A stretch of 64,000 bases of DNA from Candidatus Iainarchaeum sp. (GCA_028713935.1 JAQTNI010000001.1:1464-65463), one strand, 5' to 3'. Numbered from the stretch's first letter, positions 4,802-61,402 are shown. Numbers and translations are program-made. Notes: generated from the sequence alone by a model not told the origin.

Positions 4802-5048
4802 AGCCTTCTCTTTTTTTTATTTTTTAAAAATGCCTTGTTTTTCCCACATTGCAAAAGCATTTGCTTTTGCGATGCGTCACAAAGCCCTGCTTTGCAACGA
4901 GGCTTTTGAAAGCGAGCATTGCGAAGCATTTTTCCCAAGGCTTTTTGCCTTGCAAAAAGGCTTTTGCGAGCGCTTCAAAAGGCTTTTGCCTAATTTTAAA
5001 TATTTAAACCAGCCTTAATTTTCACGCGTTACCAGGTTAAATATTGGC

Positions 5049-24744: not shown

Positions 24745-24867
24745 TGCAAAACACTTGAGCTATTGTTTCAATGTTTCTCTGCTTGACATCGTGCCAGGGC
24801 TTTTGCCGAAGGCTAGACTTGCGAAGCAAGTCTTTCTTTCCCTGGGCTTTCTTTTTAAGAAAGGCCA

Positions 24868-25045
24868 GTGGGGTTACAGGGATTTGAACCCTGATCAACT
24901 GGTCGCTCATTATTTTACCCTGCCTTTTTGTTGTTTACCAAAGAAAAATGGTTCTTTTCTTTGGGCAACTTACACTTTCTTTTCTTGCCAAGAAAAGAAA
25001 GGGCAGGTCTGGAGCCAGTCGCACTGCCTGGTTATGCTATAACCC
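24868..25045 (-). tRNA. tRNA-Trp (anticodon CCA) with a ~105-nt intron in the anticodon loop
   Basis: Acceptor GGGGTTA/TAACCCC, D-stem GCAT/GTGC, anticodon stem ACTGG/CCAGT, loop CTCCAGA, T-arm CAGGG-TTCAAAT-CCCTG, discriminator A. Intron is roughly 24907-25011. Confidence 0.75.
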
Positions 25046-25264
25046 CGTTGGGATAATTGAAGAATTTAAAGTTTTTAAAATCAGAGGTTTTGCATTGCAA
25101 AACCTTTCTTTCCCAGGGCTTTCTTTTTTAAAGAAAGGCCTGCCAAAGTAGCTCACTTGTTGAGTGCATAAAACAACTTTGTTTTGTTGTGTTTTTAAAG
25201 ATATGGAATTTTTTATTTTTCAAATCCGTCAATTTAATATATTCTAATTGCGCTACTATTACTG

Positions 25265-33550: not shown

Positions 33551-33711
33551 TGCGTCCGCCGGGATTCGAACCCGGGTTACGAGCTCTTTCCTGCTTCAAT
33601 TTTGTTTATTATTTGTTGAAGTTCTTTCTTTTGGGCAACTTACACTTTTCTTTCTTTCAAGAAAGAAAAGGGCAGTGGGAAGCTCGAATCCTACCGCTAG
33701 ATTACAGACGC
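33551..33711 (-). tRNA. tRNA-Gly (anticodon CCC) with a ~90-nt intron
   Basis: Acceptor GCGTCTG/CGGACGC (one G-U pair), D-loop AGCGGTAGG, anticodon stem CGAGC/GCTCG, loop TTCCCAC, T-arm CCGGG-TTCGAAT-CCCGG. Intron is roughly 33585-33674. Confidence 0.75.
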
Positions 33712-34551
33712 GTTTTCTTTTTTTTCTGTTGTGCCTGTTTCTGTTTGCTGTAATTGTGCTGATGGCGCTATTAAGTATGCCTGTTGGTTTTCTATTTTTA
33801 TTTGCATTCCTGGCAGGTAGATTTTTACTAGGTTTTTTTCTGTGGGAGGAAATTTTTCCGCCAGTGCGAGCAATTGCAGTGTTTGTTTTTTTTCTATTAC
33901 AAGGTTGTTTTGCTCTGTTTTTGCCTGCAGAGATTCTTTTATTTGGTTTGCAAAGTTTGGGTTTGTGCATTCAATGCGGATTTGTTGCAGTTCTTGTTTT
34001 TCAATTATTGCAAAAATTGTGGGAATTGTTTCCTGTGAAAGAGAAATTTTTTTGAAGTCATTAAAATTCAGTTCTTTTAGTGCTGTTATCTGGTGCAAGA
34101 GCACGTCTGAAAGGTATTTTAGTTGTTGTGCCCGTTTGTCTGTTTTTTCCTTTAGTTCAAGCAAATCGGAAATGTAAAAATTGCTGCTTGTTTTTGCTGC
34201 TTTCAGCAAATCGTTGTCTGCTTTGCTTCTTTCAATGAGGGTTTGCAGCATTTTTACTATTGTTTCAACCTCTTCAACAGGGTTTTTTGATGCCATGCTT
34301 TCATTTAGCCTTGTCAATAGCTTGTTTTTCATTTCAGAATTGATTTCAACAAGGCCCTTGTCTGTTACAAAAATCTTGTTTGCCTGCCTCTGCACAACGC
34401 CAATTGCAGCCAAATCTTTCAAAGTCCTACTTAAAGCAGCGCGAGCAGAATTAATGCTGCCATATTCAGAAGTGATTCTGTTAAGCAGCTCGTTGTAATC
34501 AATTCCGGGATTCTGCTTAAGAATTAACAAAAAATTGTTTCTCTGGGTCAC
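33697..34551 (-). CDS. Winged-helix DNA-binding protein with a long helical C-terminal region
   Basis: N-terminal wHTH-like segment. Its stop overlaps the first ~15 nt of tRNA-Gly. Confidence 0.45.
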   Translation of the reverse strand: MTQRNNFLLILKQNPGIDYNELLNRITSEYGSINSARAALSRTLKDLAAIGVVQRQANKIFVTDKGLVEINSEMKNKLLTRLNESMASKNPVEEVETIVKMLQTLIERSKADNDLLKAAKTSSNFYISDLLELKEKTDKRAQQLKYLSDVLLHQITALKELNFNDFKKISLSQETIPTIFAIIEKQELQQIRIECTNPNFANQIKESLQAKTEQNNLVIEKKQTLQLLALAEKFPPTEKNLVKIYLPGMQIKIENQQAYLIAPSAQLQQTETGTTEKKENASVI

Positions 34552-35181: not shown

Positions 35182-35640
35182 ATGGTTCGGAATGTTAAAA
35201 AATGGGTAAATTATGTTGATAAGTCCCTTGCAAGGCAGCCTAAGCGTGCACTGAGAAGGCAGAGGCAAATAGAAAGGCAAGTTTTTGCCCAAGAAATTTC
35301 TCCAAAGGACTTGAAAAAGGCGCGTGCAGAGTTATCTGCTTCTGTTGCAGAGCAAAGAGTCCTGAGAAAGGATCACAAGCTTTTTAACAAAATAGTTATT
35401 GACACAGCAATAAAAGAGCTTGGTTTTAATCAGACTTTGTCTTCTTCTGCATTAAGAAACCTGCATTTGCTTTCAAACAGGGCCTTGATGATTCCCCTGG
35501 GTTCAACAATAGAAATCCGACCTGAAGTTTTTGGCCAAACATTAACTCAAATAATCAGGTTAATTGGCGACAAACCCCTTGCAATAAAATTTTTGTCTAC
35601 TCTGATTCACTTGCGCGAAGCTTACAATAAAAATCTTTAA
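35182..35640 (+). CDS. Hypothetical protein
   Basis: ORF only. Confidence 0.3.
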   Translation: MVRNVKKWVNYVDKSLARQPKRALRRQRQIERQVFAQEISPKDLKKARAELSASVAEQRVLRKDHKLFNKIVIDTAIKELGFNQTLSSSALRNLHLLSNRALMIPLGSTIEIRPEVFGQTLTQIIRLIGDKPLAIKFLSTLIHLREAYNKNL

Positions 35641-35671: not shown

Positions 35672-36088
35672 TCAGTTTTGCCCTATTCCACAAAGTTTTT
35701 TCCATTGCTCTTCCACTGTCCTTTCGTTCACATATGGCTTGTGGTGCCTGAATCCGCCTCCAAATCCTGCTGGGATGTGCAGTAATTCGTGAATCAGGGT
35801 TTTTGTTTTGTCATCCTCGCTTAGCCTGTCAAATTTTTCCGAAAGCAGTTCAATCACATAAAAAGGCTCTGTTTTCATTCCAAGCTGCATTGCTTTTCCT
35901 AACCCATGTATGCGTGCAATTGTCCTTCTTGTTTTTGTCCCTGCACTTTTAAGACAGGCAATTCTTTCAGGCGCAATATGGTGAAAACCGAGCTTTTCAA
36001 CAAGTTCCCTTGCCTTCAAAGTCCATTCTTCTGAAAAAGCGTATTTCACAAAAAAAACCTTATAACATTTCAGAAATTTTTTTTCCAA
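35672..36088 (-). CDS. Putative zinc metallopeptidase (HExxH)
   Basis: HELLHIPAGFGGGFRHH motif. Confidence 0.45.
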   Translation of the reverse strand: MEKKFLKCYKVFFVKYAFSEEWTLKARELVEKLGFHHIAPERIACLKSAGTKTRRTIARIHGLGKAMQLGMKTEPFYVIELLSEKFDRLSEDDKTKTLIHELLHIPAGFGGGFRHHKPYVNERTVEEQWKKLCGIGQN

Positions 36089-45837: not shown

Positions 45838-46108
45838 TTTCACCAAGATTTTAAAAAACCATATCAATAATACTTTTTGAGTTGGGAGCAAGGTGGGCAT
45901 GAACAAGGTTCATGCCTGCCAAATTTTTACTTCTCCAAAAGAAGCAATTAAAAACCACTTGATTCCTAATTTTAACACTGCAGAGGTGGCAAGGCCTTTC
46001 TTTGCCTTGCAAAGAAAGCCCTGGGAAAGAAATACTTTTTGCCAATGCAAAAAGTGCTTCGCAAAGGAAACCCCTGGGAAAAAATTGCCGCCAATAAAAG
46101 AAAATCAT

Positions 46109-46302
46109 GCAGAGGTGGCAGAACTTGGTAAATGCGCCGGCCTTGAGAAGCCTTTCTTTCTAAAGAAAGAAAGCCTTGGGAAAGAAACAGTTTGGCTCTG
46201 CCAAACTGTAGTTCGCTTCGCTTACATTAGAAAAAAAGATTATTATTTTTCAGGCGAGCCGGTGTCCGAAAGGGCGCGTGGGTTCAAATCCCATCCTCTG
46301 CG
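46109..46302 (+). tRNA. tRNA-Ser (anticodon TGA) with a ~108-nt intron and long variable arm
   Basis: Acceptor GCAGAGG/CCTCTGC, anticodon stem CCGGC/GCCGG, loop CTTGAGA, variable arm TGTCCGAAAGGGCGC, T-arm GTGGG-TTCAAAT-CCCAT. Intron is roughly 46149-46256. Confidence 0.7.
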
Positions 46303-50548: not shown

Positions 50549-50622
50549 TCGCCTTTTAATTTTTCCAAAGCCCCAAGCACCTTTTTATTTAAATATTTGC
50601 ACAACTTATTATTTCAAGCAAT

Positions 50623-50868
50623 GCGGGGGTGGCAGAGCGGTCTAATGCGCACGCCTGGAAAGGCCTTTTCTTGCAAGCAAGAAAAGCCCTGGGAAAAGAA
50701 CAATTTGCTTTGCAAATTGGTTGATTCCCCGGTTCTCCCCAAAGGATAATTTCAGTTAGAAATTTTTTTCTTTGGGGTGGACTGCAGACCTTTCTTTTTA
50801 TTAAAAAGAAAGGGATATAGAGAGCGTGTTCTCGAAAGGGAGCGCGAGTTCAAATCTCGTCCCCCGCG
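50623..50868 (+). tRNA. tRNA-Ser (anticodon GGA) with a ~160-nt intron; its 3' end is the integration target (attL)
   Basis: GCGGGGGTGGCAGAGCGGTCTAATGCG 5' half, anticodon stem CACGC/GCGTG, loop CTGGAAA, long variable arm, T-arm GCGAG-TTCAAAT-CTCGT, acceptor 3' CCCCCGC. Confidence 0.75.
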
Positions 50869-50958
50869 TTAAACGAAAAGTTCAAATCCAATTGAACGGA
50901 AAATTCAAAAAAGAAGCTTTTTTATTTTGCTTGGAGCATAATTGTTATTGGTGGTATA

Positions 50959-51180
50959 ATGGATCAAACTTTTAAGGTTGTGATTGAGAACGGCATGGAC
51001 GGTTATTTAATTGCAGAAGTTCCAGAATTGCCAGGTTGCTATTCTCAAGGAAAAACCATGGAAGAGCTTTTAGGCAATATTAAAGAGGCAATTGAACTCT
51101 ATTTGGAATCGCTGCAAGAACTGGATAAAAAACCAGAAAAACGGTTTGTTGAAATAAAAGAAGTTGTCGTAAATGCCTAA
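50959..51180 (+). CDS. hicB: HicB-like antitoxin (UPF0150)
   Basis: GYLIAEVPELPGCYSQGKTMEELLGNIKEAIELYLE. Confidence 0.75.
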   Translation: MDQTFKVVIENGMDGYLIAEVPELPGCYSQGKTMEELLGNIKEAIELYLESLQELDKKPEKRFVEIKEVVVNA

Positions 51181-51400
51181 GCTCAAGCTGCTTGCGCCAA
51201 AAGAACTAATAAAAATCATTGAAAAACTCGGCTTCAAGTTTTTACGGCAAAAAGGAAGCCACGCAACCTTTGTCCATCCAGACGGAAGAATGACAGTAAT
51301 ACCAATACACAGCAACTCAAAAATAGATAGAGGATTGCTCTTGAAAATAATAAAAAAAGAACTGCAAATGGAAAGGCAAGAATTCGAAATATTATTGTAA
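51173..51400 (+). CDS. hicA: HicA-like mRNA interferase toxin
   Basis: KELIKIIEKLGFKFLRQKGSHATFVHPDGR. Confidence 0.75.
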   Translation: MPKLKLLAPKELIKIIEKLGFKFLRQKGSHATFVHPDGRMTVIPIHSNSKIDRGLLLKIIKKELQMERQEFEILL

Positions 51401-51441
51401 AAAAGGGCTGTGTTATAAATTGTCCGAAATGCAAGAAGAAA

Positions 51442-51710
51442 ATGGTTGAGGAAAAAGGCGAAACTCCCGAAGGCGCTACATACCATTATCACAAGTGTCC
51501 TAACTGCTGCGAGGAAATAGTTGACATGAAACAGTTGCACGCTGTTGCACAGCAATACAGGGAAATGAAAAAATACACTGCAAAAATCAGCAAATGGGGA
51601 GAAGCCTCGGCATAAGAATTCCAAAAGAACTCGCAGAACAACACTCCCTGAAACAAAACGGCGAAGTAACCTTGGTTCCGGAAAAAAAAGCAATAAAAAT
51701 AGTTGCATAA
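51442..51710 (+). pseudogene. Zinc-ribbon / AbrB (SpoVT)-domain gene split by an apparent +1 frameshift in a G4 run (~51596-51599)
   Basis: Frame 1 reads ...CPNCC...KISKWGEASA*. Frame 2 continues MGRSLGIRIPKELAEQ...VTLVP (AbrB swapped-hairpin motif). The W-G and S-L-x-I-R-I-P halves of one AbrB motif lie in two different frames. Confidence 0.45.
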
Positions 51711-51724
51711 AACGAAGCCAGAAA

Positions 51725-52168
51725 GTGCTTGGGCTGATTCAAAAGATAAATATAAAAATACGGGAAGTGCAATATATGGCCATGGCACGAACACTCAAAC
51801 AAAGAAAAAACCGAAGAAAAACAGGTGGCGTACTTGCTGTCAGCCCCAATCCACGTGAGGTATATCGTGAAGCTGATGGTTGGAGTGTTTTTCCAGATGT
51901 TCGGTACTATGTGCCTGGTAAGCGCATGACTAATTTTCAAGTGGCTCTCCGATTTTCCAATAAAAAAGGTTCCGATCGTTGGCGCTATAACCAATTTTTG
52001 AAACAACATGGTTTTATGGTAACAATGGGCGGTGATATTGTAAAGTCGCTTCCCGGCAAGAAATTTAGAATGCTAACAAAAACAGAGAAAGACAAAGTGT
52101 TACGCTTGTTAAAGTCGGGCTGGGCAGTATCTTATGGCCCAAGGCCAAAAAATACACGACAAAAATAA
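51725..52168 (+). CDS. Conserved hypothetical protein, paralog A, ending 8 nt before the att repeat region
   Basis: About 55% identical to the ORF at 53250-53687. Shared motifs RRKTGGVL, FPDVRY, GSDRWxYNQFLK, GDIVKxLPG and C-terminal SGWAxxYGPxPK. Confidence 0.5.
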   Translation: MLGLIQKINIKIREVQYMAMARTLKQRKNRRKTGGVLAVSPNPREVYREADGWSVFPDVRYYVPGKRMTNFQVALRFSNKKGSDRWRYNQFLKQHGFMVTMGGDIVKSLPGKKFRMLTKTEKDKVLRLLKSGWAVSYGPRPKNTRQK

Positions 52169-52279
52169 CCTGATGCTTGTCACGCGCATCATTAACGGCA
52201 TAGTGTTCAAATCTCGTCCCCCGCGTGTTTTTATTTCATAAACAATATGTTTTTAAATTGAAAACAGAATGTTTTTATT

Positions 52280-52822
52280 ATGCTTGCGAGTGAATTGTTT
52301 TCTTCAAAGGAGAGAATTGGGCTTATCAAGATTCTTTTTTATACGCCCAATTTGGAATTAAAAGTTAGGTCTCTTGCTCGGTTTGCAAAAGTAAGCCCTG
52401 CTCTTGTTTCCGGCACGATTGCGATTCTTAAGAAACAAGGAGCTATAAACAAAGGCAAAATTGATTTGTTGCATCCTTCTGCAAGGGCCTTGAAAATACT
52501 ATTGAATATTGAAAGCCTCACCTCTGCCAAATTTGTTCCTGAAATAAGAAGCATTTTCAAGGATTGCAATGGCATTGGTTTGTATGGTAGTTGGGCAAAC
52601 GGAACCAATTCAAAAGACAGTGATTTGGATTTTTGGGTAAAATCAGAATCTGAAAGCGAGGAAAAGTCGGCTAAAATAAGTCGTTTTGTTAAGCAGAAGC
52701 TTGGCTTGGAAGCCAGCATAATTATTCTTACACAAAAAAGGCTGAAAGAATTGAAAGAAAAGGATTTTGTTTTTTATTCAATGCTGTACAATTGTTTTTT
52801 GTTGTGGGGCGAAGGAATATGA
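52280..52822 (+). CDS. Minimal nucleotidyltransferase (MNT) with N-terminal wHTH
   Basis: GSWANGTNSKDSDLDF pol-beta-like nucleotidyltransferase motif. Confidence 0.7.
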   Translation: MLASELFSSKERIGLIKILFYTPNLELKVRSLARFAKVSPALVSGTIAILKKQGAINKGKIDLLHPSARALKILLNIESLTSAKFVPEIRSIFKDCNGIGLYGSWANGTNSKDSDLDFWVKSESESEEKSAKISRFVKQKLGLEASIIILTQKRLKELKEKDFVFYSMLYNCFLLWGEGI

Positions 52823-53235
52823 TTGATTTTAATGAGTGCCTTGCAAAAGGCCTTTTGGCAAGAATTCCCGCTTCAAGGGAAAAAGCTTTGCAGAGTATTG
52901 AGAAAGCAAAAGAACTATTGGAAGAAGCAAAAGCAAGCCTTGAAGAGGAAAGAATCAATTCCACAGTAATAGTTGCCTATCTTGCAATTTTTCATGCTGC
53001 AAGGGCACTGCTTTTCAAAGATGGTTACAGGGAAAAAAGCCACGAATGCGTAATCCGCTATCTGGAAGAAAAATATCCTGAAATAAAACCAGGGCAGATT
53101 GAAGCCTTGGAAAAATACAAAAGTGAAAGAACCCACACACAATACGATGTGAGTTATAATCCAAGCGAAGAACAAGCAGAAAAAATGATAAAATTCACGG
53201 AAAAATTCATCCAAACAATAGAAGAAATGATTTAA
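52819..53235 (+). CDS. HEPN-domain protein (partner of the MNT)
   Basis: IVAYLAIFHAARALLFKDGYREKSHE HEPN pattern. ATGA overlap with the MNT gene. Confidence 0.65.
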   Translation: MIDFNECLAKGLLARIPASREKALQSIEKAKELLEEAKASLEEERINSTVIVAYLAIFHAARALLFKDGYREKSHECVIRYLEEKYPEIKPGQIEALEKYKSERTHTQYDVSYNPSEEQAEKMIKFTEKFIQTIEEMI

Positions 53236-53249
53236 GCTGGTTCGCTTCT

Positions 53250-53687
53250 ATGCCTTGTTTTTTGGAAAATTATAAATATGGGCATGTGCTTAATACTATT
53301 GGTAGTTTAATGCGCGGTGTAAACAAAAATAGGAGAAAAACTGGTGGCGTACTCCGTGTTGGGAAACGACCACTTGAAGTTGGGATTTCGTTGGAAGATA
53401 GCGGTTTTCATGTTTTTCCCGATGTTCGATACCGCAGTGACCGAATGAGTAGATTTAAAACTTCTCGCAGGTTTTCTAACAAAATAGGTTCAGATCGCTG
53501 GCACTATAACCAGTTTTTAAAACCTCGCGGCTTTTGGATTACCCAAGCGGGCGATATTGTAAAACCCCTTCCGGGCAATAAATTTAGGTTTTTAAAGCTA
53601 TCCGAATTTCGGAAAGTTAGGGATTTGTTATGGTCGGGTTGGGCAAAGAGATACGGCCCAAAACCAAAAACAACTAAGCGAAAATAG
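53250..53687 (+). CDS. Conserved hypothetical protein, paralog B, ending just before the att repeat
   Basis: See paralog A. The start is probably the internal MRGVNKNRRK near 53310. Confidence 0.5.
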   Translation: MPCFLENYKYGHVLNTIGSLMRGVNKNRRKTGGVLRVGKRPLEVGISLEDSGFHVFPDVRYRSDRMSRFKTSRRFSNKIGSDRWHYNQFLKPRGFWITQAGDIVKPLPGNKFRFLKLSEFRKVRDLLWSGWAKRYGPKPKTTKRK

Positions 53688-54131
53688 CATCATTCTTGCC
53701 ACGCGCATCTTTAACAGTAAGGTGTTCAAATCTCGTCCCCCGCGTAATTTCAATTAATAGTCCAGAGTGTTGGCATATTAGTTGTAAGATAAAATCTTGG
53801 TTTGCTCATATTTGCCCTGTGTGCTTTTGCGAGAGCAAAATATTGGATTAGAGGCCGCAGAGGCTGTTTATTGGTGATGTTTTTGCGTTCTTGCTTTTCT
53901 AATTCTTTTTGGAGCCCACCTGTAACTTACAGATTTTCTGTTGTGATGATTTTTTTTGCTTAATAACTTTAAGAACAGGGTTCCAATTCTTCGGGCATTT
54001 TCCTGCGGATTTGAAGAACAATCAACAATATACAACGGTTTCTTATGTTGTATTGCAAGAGCCTTTGCTTCAAGTGCGCAGGCATAACATTCACGTTCGA
54101 TATCTTTGATACTTACAGAATGCCGTGTTTT

Positions 54132-54545
54132 TTATCTTCTGCGCATTTCCAGCCTGTTTTGCCTTCTTTCTTGGATTACCAGCGGGTTTCCTTTTATTAA
54201 AACAATTCCGTCAAAATACTTTGCGCATTCAGGAATCAACTGTGTAAAAATACTGGCATCATGCCTGATCCTGTTGATAACAAAGTGCCCATCAACTACA
54301 ATAAGTTTTTCGGGATATTTTCTGGCTAGGTCCCTGATTTCAAGTGCAGCTTCTTCAATAAACTTCTGCATCTCGCGATTCGTTTGTTCTCCAAATTTTT
54401 TTCCGGAAAAACTTTTTCTAAACTTTTTTTTTAAAAATTCTGCGCCACGAATATAATAGAACAGCGGCCCTAGTTTTTCACTTGCAAGCTTAATTGCAGT
54501 TGTTTTTCCCAGAGTATGTGGCCCCCCGACATAAATTAAAACCAT
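54132..54545 (-). CDS. P-loop NTPase / small nucleotide-kinase-like protein
   Basis: Walker A GGPHTLGKTT at the N-terminus. Confidence 0.5.
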   Translation of the reverse strand: MVLIYVGGPHTLGKTTAIKLASEKLGPLFYYIRGAEFLKKKFRKSFSGKKFGEQTNREMQKFIEEAALEIRDLARKYPEKLIVVDGHFVINRIRHDASIFTQLIPECAKYFDGIVLIKGNPLVIQERRQNRLEMRRR

Positions 54546-54644
54546 ACTTAACTTACCCCTCTTTTGTATATATTTTTTTGGTTATAAGAAAAAAATGAAT
54601 AAGCTTTTTATTTCCAAGTGCCCATTATTTACAAGGTAATTTGT

Positions 54645-55337
54645 ATGGCAAAAAGCAAAAAAGAATTTTCTGGAAAAAAGGATTGCGGAATTGTTGTTTC
54701 AAAGGATGGGCCTTATCTTGTTTCTGGCGGCTTGCCTCTGGTAAGGGAAATTGCTGTGCCTGACAGTGAAGGCCATCCTGTAAAATGGGTGAAAGGCAAG
54801 GTTTTTCCTGCCAAGGGAGATTATGCTCTTTGCCGTTGTGGACAGACTGAAAAAAAGCCGTTTTGTGATGGAACACACACTAAAATAGGCTTTGATGGCA
54901 CTGAAACAGCAAGCAGGAAAGAATTCCTGAAACAAGCGGAAAAAATCAGTGGGTCAGGCCTTGTTTTGTTTGATGCGCCAGAACTGTGCGCAGGAGCAGG
55001 GTTTTGCCATAGCAAGGAAGGGGATACATGGAACCTTACAAAAGAGTCTGATAATTTCAAATCAAAAAAAATTGCAATCCAGCAGGCATGCGATTGCCCT
55101 GCGGGAAGGCTGGTGGCTTGTGAAAAAAAAACAGGCAAGCCAATTGAACCTGATTTTAAGCCAGGAATCAGCATTACAAAATGGCAAGGCGAAAAATTTC
55201 CCGGTCCCTTTTGGATAAAAGGCGGAGTGCCAATAGAATCGCATGATGGAAAAAAATATGAAACAAGGAATCGCGTTACTTTGTGCCATTGCGGCAAATC
55301 AAGAAACAAGCCGTTTTGTGATGGCAGCCATATGTAA
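54645..55337 (+). CDS. CDGSH iron-sulfur domain protein (two CDGSH motifs)
   Basis: CRCGQTEKKPFCDGTH and CHCGKSRNKPFCDGSH. Confidence 0.8.
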   Translation: MAKSKKEFSGKKDCGIVVSKDGPYLVSGGLPLVREIAVPDSEGHPVKWVKGKVFPAKGDYALCRCGQTEKKPFCDGTHTKIGFDGTETASRKEFLKQAEKISGSGLVLFDAPELCAGAGFCHSKEGDTWNLTKESDNFKSKKIAIQQACDCPAGRLVACEKKTGKPIEPDFKPGISITKWQGEKFPGPFWIKGGVPIESHDGKKYETRNRVTLCHCGKSRNKPFCDGSHM

Positions 55338-55383
55338 GCAAATATTTTTCCAAGTTTTTTTGTTGGAAAGGTTATAAACTACT

Positions 55384-55887
55384 TTGTTAAATGCTTTTTT
55401 TATGCAGGAAGAATTCAGGCTTGTTTCAAATACGGAATTGGCAGGCCCTTTAAGGCATTTTGTTGAAGCTATTTTTGCCAAACATATTTCTAATCCGGGT
55501 TCTTTGAAGGTTTTTATTTCAAACGGCGGCCAAATGAAAGGGATTGCAAGGGGCAATGTTTTGATTGGATTTTGCGCCTTTATGCCGCTTGGCAATGATT
55601 CTGTTTTAATAAGCCAAATCTGGACAAATACGAAGTCAGTGGCTGCAAGAGAATTCAAAAGAGATTTTGGCAGGACTCCAACAGAATATCTTTTTGGAGA
55701 TTTTTTGAGGAAAGGAATTTCCCATTTTCATCATCTAGGGGTAACAGCTTTAGGTGCAAGATTTTTGGCAAGGCTTGAGAAAAACGCCCTGGTTGCTAAA
55801 AAACAAAGCGGGTTTGAAATAACAAATAGGGCAATTGAAAAAGCAAAAAAAACAAGGCAATTAAGGCCTCTCAGGGTTATTCATTGA
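55384..55887 (+). CDS. Hypothetical protein
   Basis: ORF only. Confidence 0.3.
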   Translation: MLNAFFMQEEFRLVSNTELAGPLRHFVEAIFAKHISNPGSLKVFISNGGQMKGIARGNVLIGFCAFMPLGNDSVLISQIWTNTKSVAAREFKRDFGRTPTEYLFGDFLRKGISHFHHLGVTALGARFLARLEKNALVAKKQSGFEITNRAIEKAKKTRQLRPLRVIH

Positions 55888-55892
55888 ATTTT

Positions 55893-56120
55893 TTATTCGT
55901 CCTGTTTTTGCTTGGGTTTGACTGGTGTTTTTACCTGGCCTCTGGCCTGGTTGCTTTCTGAAAGGTCCTGGATTCTTCTAGCCAAAGCGGAATATTTTTT
56001 TTGTTTCAGCATTAATTGCATTTCCAACAGCCTTAATTGCCAGTAGTCCTGGGGTTTTGCGCAGTCCAGTTCGTCCAGCACTTCGGATAACTTTCGTTTC
56101 ACCATAAAAATTGCCTCCAA
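55893..56120 (-). CDS. Hypothetical small protein
   Basis: ORF only. Confidence 0.25.
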   Translation of the reverse strand: MEAIFMVKRKLSEVLDELDCAKPQDYWQLRLLEMQLMLKQKKYSALARRIQDLSESNQARGQVKTPVKPKQKQDE

Positions 56121-56374
56121 AAAAATCAGTCAAATTTTTGAATAAAAAGCCAATAAAAAATCAATTCCAAATTGTTATATAATCAGTGTATGGTTAGTAT
56201 TAAAATGCAATAATAAGGCAGCAATAAACGCTTTTTTTGGCTCAGTTCCCTTTATAACCTGTTTTTGGCACTTATTATGTATATCAGATTCTGTTTCTCT
56301 AATCTGTTAGTGCTTTGGCACCATAGTAAATTTTTTGAGAATTAAAAAATTCAATTGATTGTGGAGGGATAAAA

Positions 56375-56869
56375 ATGACTTTAGAACCTATTTGGACAAA
56401 AGACCTGGATATTGTTTTTGTTGGAATAAACCCGAGGTCAGAATCAGTGGAAAATGGAATGTATTTTCACGAGAACAATTCTTTTTGGTCGCAATTAAAC
56501 GAATCTGAAATTACTTCGGAAATTACTGATTCAAAAAACATGCTGAAATACAATATTGGAATTGATAACCTGGTTCACAGGCCTACGAAAAGCAGCAAAG
56601 AGCTTTCAAAAAAAGAATATTATGATGGCAGGAAAGAACTGGAACAAAAAATTCTGGAGCAAAAGCCAAAGACTGTCTGCTTTTTGGGAAAAAAGGCATT
56701 CAGGAAATATTTTAAGGAAAAGCCTGAAAACCATGGCTGGCAAAAAGAAAAAATTTTGGAATCAAAAGTTTTCATAGCGTATGTTCCGAAAAAAAACAAG
56801 TATGATTCAAAAATGAACATTACTGAAAAAGACAAGATAAACAAGTTAAAAGAATTAAAATCACAATAA
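56375..56869 (+). CDS. mug: G/U mismatch-specific uracil-DNA glycosylase (Mug/TDG family, UDG family 2)
   Basis: IVFVGINPRSESVENGMYFHENNSFW motif. Confidence 0.7.
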   Translation: MTLEPIWTKDLDIVFVGINPRSESVENGMYFHENNSFWSQLNESEITSEITDSKNMLKYNIGIDNLVHRPTKSSKELSKKEYYDGRKELEQKILEQKPKTVCFLGKKAFRKYFKEKPENHGWQKEKILESKVFIAYVPKKNKYDSKMNITEKDKINKLKELKSQ

Positions 56870-56997
56870 GCAATTCACTGCAAATGCTTTGTGCAGGGCA
56901 GGCAAGCTTTGCACAAACAATGAATTGCAGAGCAATTAATTCAAATAAGCTTTTTATTCCTAAGCGCACTGATTAGTTAAATAGGGGCTGTTTTTCA

Positions 56998-58152
56998 ATG
57001 GGCAAAACTTTTGGCATCAGCATAGGGCTTGGCATTGTAAAGCCAAATTTTGAAAAGCCGTTTGAAGAGAATTTTGAGAAGGCTTTTTCTGCTTTCAAGG
57101 AATACAAAAAGGCAAAAATTTCTGAAAGGAAAGCGTTTTTTGGAGTGCTTTCAAGGAAGGACTGGGAAAGCCTTGTAGGAATAAAGCTGATTGAAAATTC
57201 TTCCATAGAAGGAAAAAAATTTCTTGAAGGGGAATACAAAAAAATTCTTTTTTTTGATGAAGAAAGGCTTTTTCTTGAAACAGTTGAACTGAACAGGGAA
57301 ATGGAAAACAATCTTTTTCTTCTGAAGAAAAAAAGAAGTTTTGCAAAAAGCATTGCAAAGGGAATTTTCAGGGTAAAAAATGCTTTTTCTGGCTTTGAAA
57401 GGCTTTTCAAGAAAAAAATTCTTTTGGAAATGGGTTTTTTCAGGCTGCTGCCTTTTTGTTATTCCCTGATTGAAGAACTGCCTGAATCAAAAAAACAATT
57501 TGTGAAATACAATGAAAGCGATGCAATTGAGTTTGTTTCAAAGCCGGGCCAGAGCCTTAATAAAATTGAAAAAGAATTATTGCGGAACATTCTGCTTGCA
57601 GAAAAAATTCTTGCAAAAAAAGGCCTGAAACTTTTTTTTGGCAGTGTTTATCCAAAAACAAAAAGAATGGGCTTGCTGAAAAAGATTGGAATTGGCGAGG
57701 ACCAGAATTTTTTGGAATTGCATTTGCACATGGGAAATTTTGATTCCGCTGCTGAAATGGCAGAACTGTACAACAAAATAATTGGCTTTTTTGAAGCAAA
57801 TCCCCTGTTAATTGAAGAGGAGCGCAGGCTTTTTTATGGCCTTAAAAACCCAAGAAGGTTAAGCCTGAAAGGCATTGAAGAGCAAATTCGGGCAAGGTTT
57901 GGAAAAAACAGCAGGCTTGAAAAACCAGGCAGGCCTGATATTGATGCAATTATTTCGGCTTTGAACAATAGAAAACAGAAATTTTTGGCGAGAGATTATG
58001 CGACTGTTTTTATCAGGCCTGAGCTTGGCACAATTGAAATCAGGGCTTTTGGAACAAAAGGAAACGGAACAAAAAGCATAAGGAAAAACCTTCATGAAAA
58101 CATTGTTTTTTTTGAACAGTTCATGAAAAAACTTGAATTGGCTTCAGCGTGA
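56998..58152 (+). CDS. Hypothetical protein, possibly carboxylate-amine-ligase-like
   Basis: 384-aa ORF. The TIEIRAFG segment is reminiscent of the GCS2 family, but this is weak. Confidence 0.3.
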   Translation: MGKTFGISIGLGIVKPNFEKPFEENFEKAFSAFKEYKKAKISERKAFFGVLSRKDWESLVGIKLIENSSIEGKKFLEGEYKKILFFDEERLFLETVELNREMENNLFLLKKKRSFAKSIAKGIFRVKNAFSGFERLFKKKILLEMGFFRLLPFCYSLIEELPESKKQFVKYNESDAIEFVSKPGQSLNKIEKELLRNILLAEKILAKKGLKLFFGSVYPKTKRMGLLKKIGIGEDQNFLELHLHMGNFDSAAEMAELYNKIIGFFEANPLLIEEERRLFYGLKNPRRLSLKGIEEQIRARFGKNSRLEKPGRPDIDAIISALNNRKQKFLARDYATVFIRPELGTIEIRAFGTKGNGTKSIRKNLHENIVFFEQFMKKLELASA

Positions 58153-59037
58153 CTTTGGAATTTTGTGGCCTCCAAATTTGTTTCTTATGGCTGCTATAAA
58201 CTTGTTTGAAAAAGTGTTTTCCTGCCTTGACCTTAGGCGGGATTCAAAAGCTGCTGTTATTGAAGAAAACGGGATTTCTTTTTTCCAGGCTTCTTCAATT
58301 GCCCATTTGCCTGTTTCCCCGCCTTCAACAATTCCCGGAAGATTATCAAAATTTTCTTCTTTAAGCGCTTTTTCCGCGAGTTCAAGGATATATGACCTGA
58401 TTATGGCCCCGTTGTTCCAGGTGCCGGCAATTTCACAAAGATTAAAGCCAAATTCAGATTTTGACAATAATTCAAATCCCTCTGCATAGCTTTGAAGAAT
58501 TCCGTATTCAATTGCATTGTGCGCCATTTTTATAAAATGCCCTGAACCATTTCCGCCTGCAAACAATAATCCGTTTTTGCTTGCCAAAGCCTCAAAAACA
58601 GGCTTGAACTTTTCAAAGGCCTTTTTTTCCCCGCCAACAGTGAAACAAAGCCCGTTTTCAGCGCCCCGCAGGCCCCCGCTTGTTCCTGCATCAAGAAAAA
58701 AAATGCCTTTTTCTCCAAGGCTTTTGGCTCTTCTGATGGAATCAAGGTAATGGGAATTGCCTGCATCTGCAATAATGTCGCCTTTTTTCAAATAGGGAAG
58801 AATTTCCAAAATTGCTTTTTCCACTGCTTCCCCCGCTGGAACCAAAAGGACAATTTTTCTTTCCGGCTTTAAATACTCCACAAACTCCTTAATGCTTGAA
58901 GCGATATTAATTTTTTTTCCAAGCTCTTTTCTTAAATCCGGATTTTTATCAAACCCAATGGCATCAATTTTTTTTGAAGCCAGATTTGCCAATGCCCTCT
59001 GGCCAATTTTTCCCAGGCCAATGATTCCAACCTGCAT
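58144..59037 (-). CDS. gnd: 6-phosphogluconate dehydrogenase (decarboxylating), short NAD(P)-binding form
   Basis: MQVGIIGLGKIG Rossmann motif and Gnd family motifs (GTSGG, GSGHFIKMAHNAIEYG). Confidence 0.8.
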   Translation of the reverse strand: MQVGIIGLGKIGQRALANLASKKIDAIGFDKNPDLRKELGKKINIASSIKEFVEYLKPERKIVLLVPAGEAVEKAILEILPYLKKGDIIADAGNSHYLDSIRRAKSLGEKGIFFLDAGTSGGLRGAENGLCFTVGGEKKAFEKFKPVFEALASKNGLLFAGGNGSGHFIKMAHNAIEYGILQSYAEGFELLSKSEFGFNLCEIAGTWNNGAIIRSYILELAEKALKEENFDNLPGIVEGGETGKWAIEEAWKKEIPFSSITAAFESRLRSRQENTFSNKFIAAIRNKFGGHKIPKSR

Positions 59038-59040
59038 GAA

Positions 59041-59943
59041 TTATTGCCTCCCTAGTTTTTCGTCAGCAAAAACAAAAGCCCCAAGCAGCCCAATTTTGCT
59101 GCCAAGCTTTGACGGAACAATTTTTGGCACCTTGCCGATTGTATACTTTTTTATTTCGCGTGGCTTTGGAATAATTTTGTCAAACTGGTTCAAAGCAATT
59201 GAGCCCATCAAAACAATTGCATCAACAGAAAAAGCATTAAGCATATTGCCAATGCCCTGCGCATTGTAATCCCTTATTTGCCAAACAATTTTTTTTATTT
59301 TTTTGTCTGACTCGCTCAGCCTGAAAAAGTCTTCAACTGTTATCCTTGTTTTTAATTCTTTTTCAATTATGGATTCTATTCCAAAACCAGAGGACATTGC
59401 GGCCCAGCAGCCAAGCCTGTTGCAGCTGCATTTTTTGGCCTTTTTCAAATCCCGCTCCAAGGTTGTGTGGCCGAATTCGCCAAAAAAACAGTCCATTGCC
59501 TTGCCGTTCATGACAAGCCCGGAACCAATTCCAGTGCTAATTGCCAGAAGAAAAAATTTTTTCACTGTTTTTCCCAGGCCAAAATTCAGTTCGGCTTTTG
59601 CGGCAGCTTTCAGGTCGTTTGCAATAAAAACAGGCTCTTTAAAGTGCCTGCCTAATTCTCTGGCAACATTGAATTTGGAATTAATTTTCATTGGTGCAGA
59701 TTCCAGCAAAAACCCGTTTTCAACAGGGCCTGGCAAGCCAAGTGAAACTCCCGCAATTTTGAATTCAGAAGAAACGCTTTCCCTAAGCGCCTTTGACAAA
59801 TCCCTGATTTGCATTATTAGCGCTTTTGGGCTTCCCTTGATAGTTTTACACTCAATTGCCCTGGTTATTTTTCCGTTTTTTTGCATTAACGCGCCAAGAA
59901 TTTTTGTTCCGCCAACATCATAGCATTCTATCAGGCCAGGCAT
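59041..59943 (-). CDS. ROK-family sugar kinase (glucokinase-like)
   Basis: YDVGGTKI ... GLPGPV ... FIANDLKAAA. Confidence 0.7.
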   Translation of the reverse strand: MPGLIECYDVGGTKILGALMQKNGKITRAIECKTIKGSPKALIMQIRDLSKALRESVSSEFKIAGVSLGLPGPVENGFLLESAPMKINSKFNVARELGRHFKEPVFIANDLKAAAKAELNFGLGKTVKKFFLLAISTGIGSGLVMNGKAMDCFFGEFGHTTLERDLKKAKKCSCNRLGCWAAMSSGFGIESIIEKELKTRITVEDFFRLSESDKKIKKIVWQIRDYNAQGIGNMLNAFSVDAIVLMGSIALNQFDKIIPKPREIKKYTIGKVPKIVPSKLGSKIGLLGAFVFADEKLGRQ

Positions 59944-59982
59944 AATTATGTATTGTTTGCAATAACAAATAAATAACTGTCT

Positions 59983-60696
59983 GTGCATAAATGCAGGTTA
60001 ATGAAAATAATTGCAGATAAAAATATGGAAAAATTGAATAAGCTTGCAGCCAAGATTTTGGCGAGAAGCATAAAACAGATATTGAAAAAAAAGGAGTATC
60101 TTATTCTGGGCCTTGCAGGCGGCAGGAGCCTTTTTGGCTTTTTAAAAGTTCTAAGCCGGGAAACAGAAATCCCCTGGAAAAAAATCCATTTCTTTCTGGC
60201 TGACGAAAGAATAGTGCCTGTTTCAAGCAAAGAAAGCAATTTCAGGATGATCAAGGGCGCCCTGTTTGACAGGCTTGCCAGTAAAAAATTATTGCCAAAA
60301 AAGAATATCCACAAATTTGCCATGAATAAAAAACCATGTTTTGGGCTTTTTGATTATGAAAAAGAGCTGAAAAAATACGGGAATTTTTATGATATCCTGG
60401 TTTTAAGTTCCGGAGAAGACGGGCACATAGCCTCTTTGTTTCCAAAACATGATTCAATAAAAAACAATTCAGAATGTTATCTGATAGTAAAAAATTCGCC
60501 CAAACCGCCTGAAAAAAGAATGAGTGTTTCGAGAAAAATGATTTTAAGGTCAAAAATTGTTTTGTTGTTTTTTATTGGCGAAGCCAAAAAAACCGCCTAT
60601 AAAAAATTTTTAGAAAAAGGCAATGGCTTTTTTGTGTGCCCTGCGAAACTAACCAAAAGAATCAAGGAACTGTATGTCCTAACAAGCCACAAATAG
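59983..60696 (+). CDS. pgl: 6-phosphogluconolactonase
   Basis: LGLAGGRS ... LADERIVP ... SSGEDGHIASLFP. Confidence 0.8.
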   Translation: MHKCRLMKIIADKNMEKLNKLAAKILARSIKQILKKKEYLILGLAGGRSLFGFLKVLSRETEIPWKKIHFFLADERIVPVSSKESNFRMIKGALFDRLASKKLLPKKNIHKFAMNKKPCFGLFDYEKELKKYGNFYDILVLSSGEDGHIASLFPKHDSIKNNSECYLIVKNSPKPPEKRMSVSRKMILRSKIVLLFFIGEAKKTAYKKFLEKGNGFFVCPAKLTKRIKELYVLTSHK

Positions 60697-60699
60697 GGG

Positions 60700-61287
60700 T
60701 TATTCAAAAAATTCTTTTTTAAGAATGATTTTGTTTGTAAGGCCATAATTGTGCTTTTCGAGTACGCCTTTTGATTCAAGCCTTTTGATTGTCCTGTGGA
60801 CCTGGACCTTGCTTAACCCTGTTTCCTTGACAAGCTTTGATTGAGTGGATTCAAAATTTGCTTTTTTAAGCGTGTCAATAATTTTTTTTTCGTCAGGCAG
60901 CAATAGGCTGTTTGTTGTTTCCTGTTTTATTGCCTTGATTTCTTTTTCGCGGACAAGGCTCCAGATTACAATTCCCGCCAAAATTGAAACAACTGCGCCT
61001 GCAATCAGGAAAAGCGAGGTTGGGGATAGCAGTGCCTGCACAGGATCGGGCGTAAAAAACCTGGCCCTGTCGAATCTGTTTGAATCAATGTTTAAGTCCC
61101 TGGCTTCTGCAGGCAGGCTCTGTGAAATTCTCTCTCCCAAAGGAAAACCAACAAGCTCTATTCTCCAAAAAACAGTGTAAGCCTGAAGTATAAAGGAAAT
61201 AAGCGAAAAACCGCCGAAAAGAAAGCACAAAAACATTATTGCAAAATACTTTTTCTTTGCCCTGAAAATAGTTTCATTTTGTTTCAT
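60700..61287 (-). CDS. Membrane-anchored winged-helix transcriptional regulator
   Basis: Two TM helices, then C-terminal LVKETGLSKVQVHRTIKRLESKGVLEK. Confidence 0.55.
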   Translation of the reverse strand: MKQNETIFRAKKKYFAIMFLCFLFGGFSLISFILQAYTVFWRIELVGFPLGERISQSLPAEARDLNIDSNRFDRARFFTPDPVQALLSPTSLFLIAGAVVSILAGIVIWSLVREKEIKAIKQETTNSLLLPDEKKIIDTLKKANFESTQSKLVKETGLSKVQVHRTIKRLESKGVLEKHNYGLTNKIILKKEFFE

Positions 61288-61402
61288 GTTTCATCACGTT
61301 TCAATGCCCCATAATAACTGTTTCATTAGGTTACAAGGAGGTTACAGGCACTCCTAATAATTGTTGCAAACCAATTTAAATCTAGTGTTCGGAGGCAGTA
61401 TA

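What the first reader, a model, noticed from the sequence alone, without database searches (positions are those of the whole stretch)
51725..53687. Duplicated unknown protein family positioned at the right end of each integrated segment, directly abutting the att repeat
The two ~125-145-aa proteins (51725-52168 and 53250-53687) are ~55% identical. Their conserved blocks are RRKTGGVL, FPDVRY, RFSNKxGSDRWxYNQFLK, GDIVKxLPGxKFR and a C-terminal SGWAxxYGPxPKxTxxK. Each stops 8-30 nt before the att copy. The fixed position and orientation relative to att, the basic termini and the lack of any other recombination gene make them candidates for a small element-encoded DNA-binding or recombination-directionality function, or a new site-specific recombination component. 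I do not recognise the family.
Basis: inference. Interest (0 to 1): 0.7.

Follow-up and report, generated by a model that had tools for sequence, protein, structure and literature searches.

The report
Orphan basic protein beside tRNA-Ser repeats
Two small toxin-antitoxin islands sit in tandem behind a tRNA-Ser gene of a DPANN archaeon, and each ends with the same very basic protein gene found nowhere else in public data; it may help these islands recombine, but nothing here shows that.

Summary
Two real, selected paralogues lie at 51776-52168 (130 aa) and 53310-53687 (125 aa). They are 60% identical, with dN/dS 0.25. Each ends exactly 36 nt before an exact copy of the last 21-22 nt of an intron-containing tRNA-Ser(GGA) gene (50622-50869).

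The repeats bound two integrase-less segments of 1357 and 1519 bp. One carries HicBA and the other MNT-HEPN. A related genome lacks both segments at the same locus. Another Iainarchaeum genome (AR10) has a similar 1.5-kb toxin-antitoxin segment at tRNA-Ser, without this protein.

The protein, called X here, is an orphan. Searches of about 15 billion proteins, viral contigs and metagenome contigs, and of Pfam, PHROGs, NCBIfam, PADLOC and PDB sequences, found only the two window copies. Structure models were poor and fold searches empty. X has pI above 11, no Cys and no conserved His, so it carries no recombinase signature.

The homologous unit is promoter, gene, a 36-nt arm more conserved than silent sites, and the core. 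The two copies therefore count as one evolutionary observation.

Best reading: two related mini-elements accreted at the tRNA T-loop by a tyrosine integrase acting in trans. X is their backbone gene and probably binds nucleic acid. A recombination role is plausible but untested. Interest is modest.

The parts
50622..50869 (+). tRNA-Ser(GGA) gene with a 162-nt intron in the anticodon loop. It is the integration target, and its 3' end is core copy 1.
   Evidence: ARAGORN with the intron option finds tRNA-Ser(gga) with intron i(40,162). The in-silico spliced sequence folds as tRNA-Ser. Default ARAGORN and Rfam both missed it.
50848..50869 (+). Core copy 1 (attL-like): T-loop, 3' T-stem, acceptor 3' strand and discriminator of the tRNA.
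   Evidence: Exact 21-mer found three times. A 22-nt blastn match links it to both distal copies.
50959..51400 (+). HicB (50959-51180) and HicA (51173-51400) toxin-antitoxin pair, the cargo of segment 1.
   Evidence: PF15919 at 7e-11 and PF07927 at 2e-18.
51442..51708 (+). Frameshifted gene for a Zn-ribbon fused to a MazE/AbrB-type antitoxin (a pseudogene) in segment 1.
   Evidence: The frame switches near 51600. The reconstructed protein hits PF04014 at 3.8e-10.
51745..51775 (+). TATA-like box (AAATATAAAAATA) and short leader of X1. Homology between the two modules starts here.
   Evidence: Nucleotide alignment of the two units. This is a reading of the sequence, and promoter function is inferred.
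51776..52168 (+). X1, an orphan basic protein of 130 aa (NCBI PHD95_00350).
52169..52204 (+). 36-nt arm between the X1 stop and the core. It contains the conserved 21-mer at 52176-52196.
   Evidence: 27 of 36 positions are identical to arm 2, against 51% identity at third codon positions (P = 0.003). The motif is unique to the two arms. No significant RNA fold was found.
52205..52226 (+). Core copy 2, the junction between segment 1 and segment 2.
   Evidence: The junction is confirmed in Logan contig L018.
52280..53235 (+). HTH-MNT nucleotidyltransferase (52280-52822) and HEPN (52792-53235) toxin-antitoxin pair, the cargo of segment 2.
   Evidence: PF01909 at 2.5e-8 and PF05168 at 2.3e-19. Homologues of the pair elsewhere sit in unrelated contexts.
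53275..53309 (+). TATA-like box (AAATTATAAATAT) and short leader of X2.
   Evidence: Promoter function is inferred.
53310..53687 (+). X2, an orphan basic protein of 125 aa (NCBI PHD95_00365, annotated from 53250 as 145 aa).
53688..53723 (+). 36-nt arm between the X2 stop and the core. It contains the conserved 21-mer at 53695-53715.
53724..53745 (+). Core copy 3 (attR-like), followed by chromosomal flank.
   Evidence: The junction is confirmed in Logan contigs L016 and L017.

Best explanation
Two related miniature integrative elements of 1357 and 1519 bp lie in tandem in the 3' end of tRNA-Ser(GGA). They carry no integrase. Each consists of a toxin-antitoxin cargo (HicBA, or MNT-HEPN) and one shared backbone module: own promoter, X gene, conserved 36-nt arm, and a 21-22-nt copy of the tRNA's T-loop-to-3'-end.

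The identity block starts at the T-loop and runs to the end of the tRNA. From that I infer that integration was a classical tyrosine-integrase crossover in the T-loop, with the enzyme supplied in trans by a helper element, a virus or the host. That makes these the archaeal counterpart of cis-mobilizable elements joined by site-specific accretion.

X is a real, selected, extremely basic protein of about 125 aa with no detectable relatives. I infer that it binds nucleic acid. Its most likely job is to bind the adjacent conserved arm as an architectural or directionality factor for the trans-acting recombinase.

Shown: the anatomy, the insertion status, purifying selection on X, orphan status, and constraint on the arm. 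Inferred: the crossover mechanism, the trans integrase, DNA binding, and any recombination role.
For: - Three exact cores, the first being the genuine tRNA 3' end.
- Empty-site-like synteny in L007: guaA, tRNA-Ser(GGA) and a CDGSH gene 76% identical, with no repeats, toxin-antitoxin genes or X.
- A second genome (AR10, L001) has the same core twice, 1527 nt apart, around a Gp49/HigB-like toxin-antitoxin pair and a membrane protein, with no integrase. Tiny toxin-antitoxin segments at tRNA-Ser therefore recur in this lineage.
- X is the only gene shared by the two segments, and homology spans promoter to core.
- dN/dS is 0.25.
- The arm is 75% identical against 51% at silent positions.
- pI is 11.2 and 11.6.
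- No recombinase family was found in the segments or in 25 other ORFs tested.
Against: - There is no direct evidence that X binds DNA or affects recombination.
- The two copies are one homologous module, so position relative to att is effectively n = 1.
- The AR10 mini-segment lacks X, so X is not needed to generate such segments.
- No integrase, circular form or empty-site variant was found for this genome. The rest of the MAG could not be searched.
- The core was absent from viral contigs, so no helper is identified.
- The structure models were too poor to show a DNA-binding fold (pLDDT 44 and 51).
Confidence: 0.4

Rival explanations
1. X is passenger or backbone cargo unrelated to recombination. 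It could be a nucleic-acid-binding regulator, an anti-defence or defence factor, or a chromatin-like protein of the element family. It sits next to att only because the module was inherited as one block and because decay of integrated elements spares what lies beside the toxin-antitoxin genes and the att scar.
For: The two copies share ancestry from promoter through core, so position carries little independent weight. The AR10 segment has no X. X has no recombinase or Xis family signal. Toxin-antitoxin-rich islets commonly collect small unrelated genes (general knowledge).
Against: X is the only conserved gene of two elements whose cargo differs completely. The non-coding arm between X and the core is more conserved than silent sites, which suggests a cis site functionally coupled to this end.
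Confidence: 0.33
2. There were not two integrations. One element integrated, then unequal crossing-over between core copies duplicated it in situ. The copies later diverged and their toxin-antitoxin cargo was swapped.
For: The X+arm+core modules are homologous, adjacent and in direct orientation. 21-nt direct repeats could support unequal exchange.
Against: dS of about 1.4 implies ancient divergence. The remaining ~900-1000 bp of each segment share no similarity at all. That would require complete replacement of one toxin-antitoxin system and its att-proximal P' flank. Independent accretion of two related elements is simpler.
Confidence: 0.15
3. X is itself a new, minimal site-specific recombinase that acts on the arm+core.
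For: X is the only conserved gene. Its 3' end abuts the att site, as int does in many elements. No other recombinase was seen. Conserved Ser, Tyr and Arg residues exist.
Against: At about 125 aa, X is well below any known tyrosine or serine recombinase (general knowledge). It has no conserved His or Cys and no hit to PF00589, PF00239 or Y1_Tnp. About half the protein is predicted disordered. The T-loop-to-3'-end identity block is the footprint expected of ordinary tyrosine integrases (Williams 2002, from memory; cited in PMC9897764).
Confidence: 0.04
4. X is a degenerate remnant of an NHL-repeat beta-propeller gene with no function of its own.
For: The only outside hits are NHL-repeat proteins: P0003 at E 7e-4 with 5 stretches and TRIM71 NHL at E 0.26. 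Against a two-blade NHL HMM, X1 was matched or beaten by 3 of 5000 shuffles and X2 by 0 of 5000.
Against: Pfam NHL does not hit. hhalign probability is only 16%. The shuffle test was post hoc. dN/dS of 0.25, intact frames and conserved promoters argue for a functional gene.
Confidence: 0.05

Closest known systems
Cis-mobilizable elements (CIMEs) and site-specific accretion at tRNA genes (Streptococcus ICESt1/ICESt3 system; review PMC5704250)
   Same: The segments are flanked by att repeats derived from the 3' end of a tRNA gene. They carry no integration genes of their own and are arranged in tandem at one target. The expected mechanism is an integrase acting in trans.
   Different: These are archaeal (DPANN) and far smaller (1.4-1.5 kb). 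There is no sign that they descend from a conjugative element. Two of them share a conserved att-proximal orphan gene plus arm. Mobility itself was not shown.
Recombination directionality factors (Xis, Cox and similar)
   Same: X is small, very basic and encoded next to an att site, beside a conserved non-coding arm that could be its binding site.
   Different: There is no sequence or confident fold similarity to any RDF family. No cognate integrase lies next to X. X is larger than most Xis proteins. No activity data exist.
Archaeal integrated elements at tRNA genes (SSV-type and pNOB8-type integrase elements; tRNA-fragment attR scars, PMC9897764, PMC7253208)
   Same: Direct repeats consist of a tRNA 3' portion bounding foreign DNA in an archaeal chromosome.
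   Different: Known cases are about 9-23 kb and carry an integrase, often split by integration. Here there is no integrase, whole or split, and X stops 36 nt before the core rather than reading through it.
IMEX elements with a small activator (for example TLC-phi XafT with host XerCD); from memory
   Same: The concept matches: an integrase-less element plus a small element-encoded factor that harnesses a host recombinase.
   Different: The target here is a tRNA T-loop, not dif. There is no homology, and this is purely an analogy for the most novel reading.
Integron gene cassettes
   Same: There is an array of short promoter-proximal units, each ending in a recombination-site repeat, and toxin-antitoxin cargo is common.
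   Different: The repeat is a tRNA fragment, not a structured attC. No significant hairpin was found, and there is no IntI or attI platform.

Membership tests
Tyrosine recombinase (Phage_integrase, PF00589) | A catalytic domain of roughly 170 aa or more carrying the R-K-H-R-H/W-Y residues | tested here: not met
   No Pfam or NCBIfam hit at E <= 1. X is 125-130 aa, has no conserved His, and its N-terminal half is predicted disordered.
Serine recombinase (Resolvase, PF00239) | An N-terminal catalytic domain with the nucleophilic Ser near residue 10, plus a DNA-binding domain | tested here: not met
   No Pfam hit. The conserved RFSNK and GSDRW serines lie mid-protein, after a low-confidence region of about 50 aa.
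HUH/Y1 transposase (IS200/IS605 TnpA) | An HUH metal-binding motif and a catalytic Tyr | tested here: not met
   No His is conserved between X1 and X2. No Pfam hit.
Recombination directionality factor (Xis/Cox-type) | Small, basic protein | tested here: met
   125-130 aa, pI 11.2 and 11.6.
Recombination directionality factor (Xis/Cox-type) | Encoded with a cognate integrase in the same element | tested here: not met
   No integrase in either segment or among 25 other window ORFs tested.
Recombination directionality factor (Xis/Cox-type) | Binds arm DNA and biases integrase towards excision | not testable with these tools
   A conserved 36-nt arm exists next to the gene, but binding and activity need experiments.
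Recombination directionality factor (Xis/Cox-type) | Winged-helix or other known RDF fold | tested here: inconclusive
Cis-mobilizable element (CIME) | Retains attL and attR but lacks integration and transfer genes | tested here: met
   Three exact cores bound two segments. The only recognised genes are toxin-antitoxin genes, plus X.
Cis-mobilizable element (CIME) | Derived by decay of an ICE or IME, and mobilizable by a related element's integrase | not testable with these tools
   No helper or parent element was found.
SSV-type partitioned integrase | The att site lies inside the int ORF, so an Int(N) or Int(C) fragment reads through the core | tested here: not met
   Both X genes end in a stop codon 36 nt before the core. 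No ORF reads out of core copy 1.
Integron cassette / attC | An imperfect palindromic attC that folds as a hairpin, with an IntI and attI platform nearby | tested here: not met
   Folding z-scores range from -1.3 to +1.2 on both strands. The repeat is a tRNA 3' end. No integrase was found.
NHL repeat (PF01436) | Significant match to the NHL blade profile | tested here: inconclusive
   Pfam gives no hit. A library hit to an NHL protein has E 7e-4. hhalign probability is 16%. Post-hoc shuffle P is about 1e-3 or lower.

The most novel reading that the evidence does not exclude
X+arm+core is a self-sufficient targeting module of a new class of integrase-less archaeal mini-elements. X would bind the conserved arm and recruit or activate a host tyrosine recombinase (for example XerA or a resident integrase) to recombine at the tRNA-Ser T-loop. 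That would let 1.4-1.5-kb toxin-antitoxin cassettes insert and accrete without encoding an enzyme. In the extreme version, X itself is a minimal recombinase.
Probability: 0.1. Interest if true: 0.75.

Novelty: new variant of a known kind. Interest (0 to 1): 0.35.

Why it matters
If X really directs recombination, it would define a minimal, enzyme-free integration module in DPANN archaea, whose mobile elements are almost unknown. It would also show how toxin-antitoxin cassettes spread and pile up at tRNA genes in tiny genomes.

As things stand, the value is narrower. The locus is a clean archaeal example of tandem, integrase-less, att-bounded mini-islands, and the pattern recurs in AR10. It also yields a well-supported orphan gene with an adjacent constrained non-coding arm. 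The family has only two members, both in one MAG, so generality and testability are limited.

Tried and rejected
Searches for relatives of X. All found only the two window copies, apart from the weak NHL and eL21 matches covered below.
- Word-index search.
- Exhaustive HMMER over 1.84 billion cluster representatives with a two-sequence profile.
- IMG/VR viral contigs and JGI metagenome contigs.
- tblastn against 15 related tRNA-Ser loci and against the window.
- Pfam, PHROGs, NCBIfam and PADLOC.
- PDB sequence profile: best hits were eL21 at E 0.065 and TRIM71 NHL at E 0.26.

NHL lead. The Pfam scan of P0003, the shuffle test and hhalign leave the similarity too weak to claim homology.

Other ideas considered and dropped.
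- A structured RNA or tRNA-like element in the arm+core: no significant fold on either strand.
- An attR-type junction (GTGTTCAAATCTCGTCCCCCGCG) in metagenome contigs: 0 hits. The core in viral contigs: 0 hits.
- Tracing the cargo: MNT homologues at 63-66% identity lie in unrelated contexts with no tRNA, no repeats and no X.
- X as the toxin partner of the upstream MazE-like gene: rejected, because that gene is frameshifted and X2 has no such neighbour.
- Terminal inverted repeats or a casposon- or IS-type insertion: none seen by eye in the segment ends.
- Resemblance of the RRKTGG motif to ribosomal protein eS8 (from memory): the Pfam scan returned no family at all for X, so it gives this no support.
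- An integrase elsewhere in the window: none among the 25 ORFs scanned. ORF 56998-58152 also has no PDB relative.
- Williams 2002 could not be read.

Full report
OBSERVATION

The two ORFs are present as described.

They are genuine protein-coding genes.
- Of 123 aligned codons, differences fall 33/39/60 on codon positions 1/2/3.
- Nei-Gojobori dN/dS is 0.25, with dS about 1.4.
- Both indels are multiples of three.

Homology between the two copies begins at a TATA-like box about 25 nt upstream of ATG 51776 and ATG 53310. The likely products are therefore 130 and 125 aa leaderless-type proteins. NCBI annotates the first as 130 aa and the second as 145 aa (PHD95_00350 and PHD95_00365, MAG Candidatus Iainarchaeum sp.).

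THE REPEAT AND THE SEGMENTS

The exact repeat is the 21-mer GTTCAAATCTCGTCCCCCGCG, or 22 nt with the next T. It starts at 50848, 52205 and 53724. Copy 1 is the real 3' end of a tRNA-Ser(GGA) gene at 50622-50869. That gene has a 162-nt intron, which default ARAGORN and Rfam missed but ARAGORN with introns finds. In the distal copies the 5' T-stem is replaced (GTG instead of GAG), so they are tRNA fragments and not genes.

The cores bound two segments.
- Segment 1 is 1357 bp. It carries HicB, HicA, a frameshifted Zn-ribbon-MazE antitoxin gene, and X1.
- Segment 2 is 1519 bp. It carries an HTH-MNT nucleotidyltransferase, HEPN, and X2.

Both X genes stop exactly 36 nt before the core. That 36-nt arm is 75% identical between copies, against 51% identity at third codon positions (P = 0.003). 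It contains a 21-mer found only at these two places in the window. The arm+core shows no significant RNA or DNA-strand fold. Apart from the X module the two segments share nothing.

ARE THEY INSERTIONS, AND ARE THEY REAL?

Independent per-run assemblies (Logan; SRR22315509 and SRR22315508) reproduce window 51248-52882 and 53053-61300 at 100% identity. The X1-core-MNT and X2-core-flank junctions are therefore not MAG assembly artefacts.

A related archaeon (L007, JBAZQI010000006.1) has guaA, the same tRNA-Ser(GGA), one unrelated gene, and then the CDGSH gene (76% identical to window 54618-55337). It has no repeats, no toxin-antitoxin genes and no X. The interval downstream of this tRNA is therefore a variable insertion site.

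The complete genome of archaeon GW2011_AR10 (L001) carries the same core twice, 1527 nt apart, at a tRNA-Ser(GCT). Between the copies lie a membrane protein and a Gp49/HigB-like toxin-antitoxin pair, with no integrase and no X. Tiny, integrase-less, toxin-antitoxin-bearing segments bounded by tRNA-Ser 3' ends therefore recur in this lineage. X does not.

WHAT IS X?

It is an orphan. These searches returned only the two window proteins:
- the word-indexed search of 5.8 billion clusters;
- an exhaustive HMMER scan of 1.84 billion representatives of about 15 billion proteins, using a profile of both copies;
- viral contigs;
- JGI metagenome contigs.

Pfam, PHROGs, NCBIfam and PADLOC gave nothing.

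The only outside signals are to NHL-repeat proteins, at E 7e-4 with five stretches and PDB TRIM71 at E 0.26, plus eL21 at E 0.065. A two-blade NHL HMM beats nearly all shuffles, but that test was post hoc, Pfam NHL does not hit, and hhalign gives 16% probability. I treat this as unproven resemblance.

Composition is the one informative property. pI is 11.2 and 11.6, K+R is about 25%, there is no Cys, and no His is conserved. That fits nucleic-acid binding. It argues against tyrosine-recombinase or HUH chemistry.

MECHANISM

The identity between tRNA and distal copies begins one base before the T-loop and runs to the end of the gene. The symmetric T-stem flanks a 7-nt loop. This is the classical layout for tyrosine integrases that cross over in the T-loop and restore the tRNA. 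That point comes from established knowledge (Williams 2002, cited in PMC9897764; I could not read the paper).

No integrase is present in the segments or among 25 other window ORFs scanned. The core is not in IMG/VR.

The best-supported picture is therefore two related mini-elements integrated and accreted by a recombinase acting in trans. This is the archaeal analogue of CIMEs and site-specific accretion (PMC5704250). tRNA-fragment attR scars are well documented in archaea (PMC9897764).

X plus its arm is the only conserved backbone. The arm's constraint suggests a cis site at that end. X binding it as an architectural or directionality factor is the most economical functional guess, but nothing here tests it.

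First, the two X-att juxtapositions are one inherited module and not independent replicates. Second, the AR10 segment shows that such mini-islands exist without X.

RIVALS

- X as unrelated cargo is about as likely as a recombination role.
- In-situ duplication followed by cargo swapping is possible but less parsimonious, given dS of about 1.4 and wholly different cargo and P' flanks.
- X as a minimal recombinase is unlikely on size and residue grounds.
- X as a dead NHL fragment is contradicted by purifying selection and conserved promoters.

VERDICT

This is a new variant of a known kind, namely att-bounded integrase-less islets at a tRNA gene, carrying a well-supported orphan gene. Interest is modest (0.35), because the family is confined to one MAG.

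The most novel reading is that X recruits a host recombinase for enzyme-free cassette integration. I put its probability at about 0.1. It would be of high interest if shown.

Noticed in passing
window 46014-46183, 50682-50696, 24837-25123, 4931-4945; L007 5586-5600 and 6438-6452: A conserved motif, GAAAGCCCTGGGAAA, occurs 7 times in the window against 0.2 expected. In the tRNA introns read (46109-46302, tRNA-Ser, L007) it is usually preceded by its partner GGCCTTTCTTT, forming a hairpin. Most copies lie inside or beside the long introns of tRNA genes, and it recurs in tRNA introns of a different genome (L007). It may be a lineage-specific intron element or processing signal.
   Followed up: partly
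window 50622-50869, 46109-46302, 33551-33711: tRNA genes here carry very long introns: the tRNA-Ser intron is 162 nt, and the other two genes span 194 and 161 nt against a 71-position Rfam model. Default ARAGORN found only 1 tRNA in 64 kb, and Rfam missed tRNA-Ser entirely. Standard annotation would miss the integration target.
   Followed up: yes
window 51442-51708: A gene for a Zn-ribbon fused to a MazE/AbrB antitoxin is split by a frameshift near 51600. The reconstructed protein hits PF04014 at 3.8e-10. It is an orphan, decaying antitoxin directly upstream of X1.
   Followed up: yes
L001 (CP010424.1, archaeon GW2011_AR10) 654-2201: The same tRNA-Ser core is duplicated 1527 nt apart at a tRNA-Ser(GCT). 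It encloses a 213-aa membrane protein and a Gp49/HigB-like toxin-antitoxin pair, with no integrase. The distal copy keeps the whole T-arm and a variable-arm-like hairpin.
   Followed up: partly
window 53746-54617 versus L007 6568-7301: The gene between tRNA-Ser and the CDGSH gene differs between genomes. Here it is an AAA_17 P-loop kinase-like gene on the minus strand plus 385 nt of non-coding DNA. In L007 it is a single unrelated + strand ORF whose family was not tested (it looks like a class II aldolase or epimerase). The interval is a replacement hot spot even outside the att-bounded segments.
   Followed up: partly
window 52883-53052 (inside the HEPN gene): Logan contigs stop or start on either side of this 170-nt stretch: two contigs from different sequencing runs begin at 53053, and the upstream contig, from one of those runs, ends at 52882. 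This suggests a repeat or strain-level polymorphism within the HEPN gene.
   Followed up: no
window 35672-36088 (-) and neighbours 35182-35640, 33697-34551: A phage-metallopeptidase-like gene (PF18894, 3e-18) sits among ORFs with no family hit, close to the intron-containing tRNA at 33551-33711. This could be another foreign islet.
   Followed up: no
window 56998-58152 (+) and 55384-55887 (+): ORFs of 384 aa and 167 aa just downstream of the island have no Pfam or NCBIfam match, and the 384-aa ORF has no PDB match either. Their function is unknown.
   Followed up: partly
window 50880-50897: Twelve nt after core copy 1, the flank repeats GTTCAAATC and then its partial inverse TTGAAC (GTTCAAATCCAATTGAAC). 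This could be an extra core-type binding site in the P' arm of segment 1. No equivalent was obvious in segment 2.
   Followed up: no
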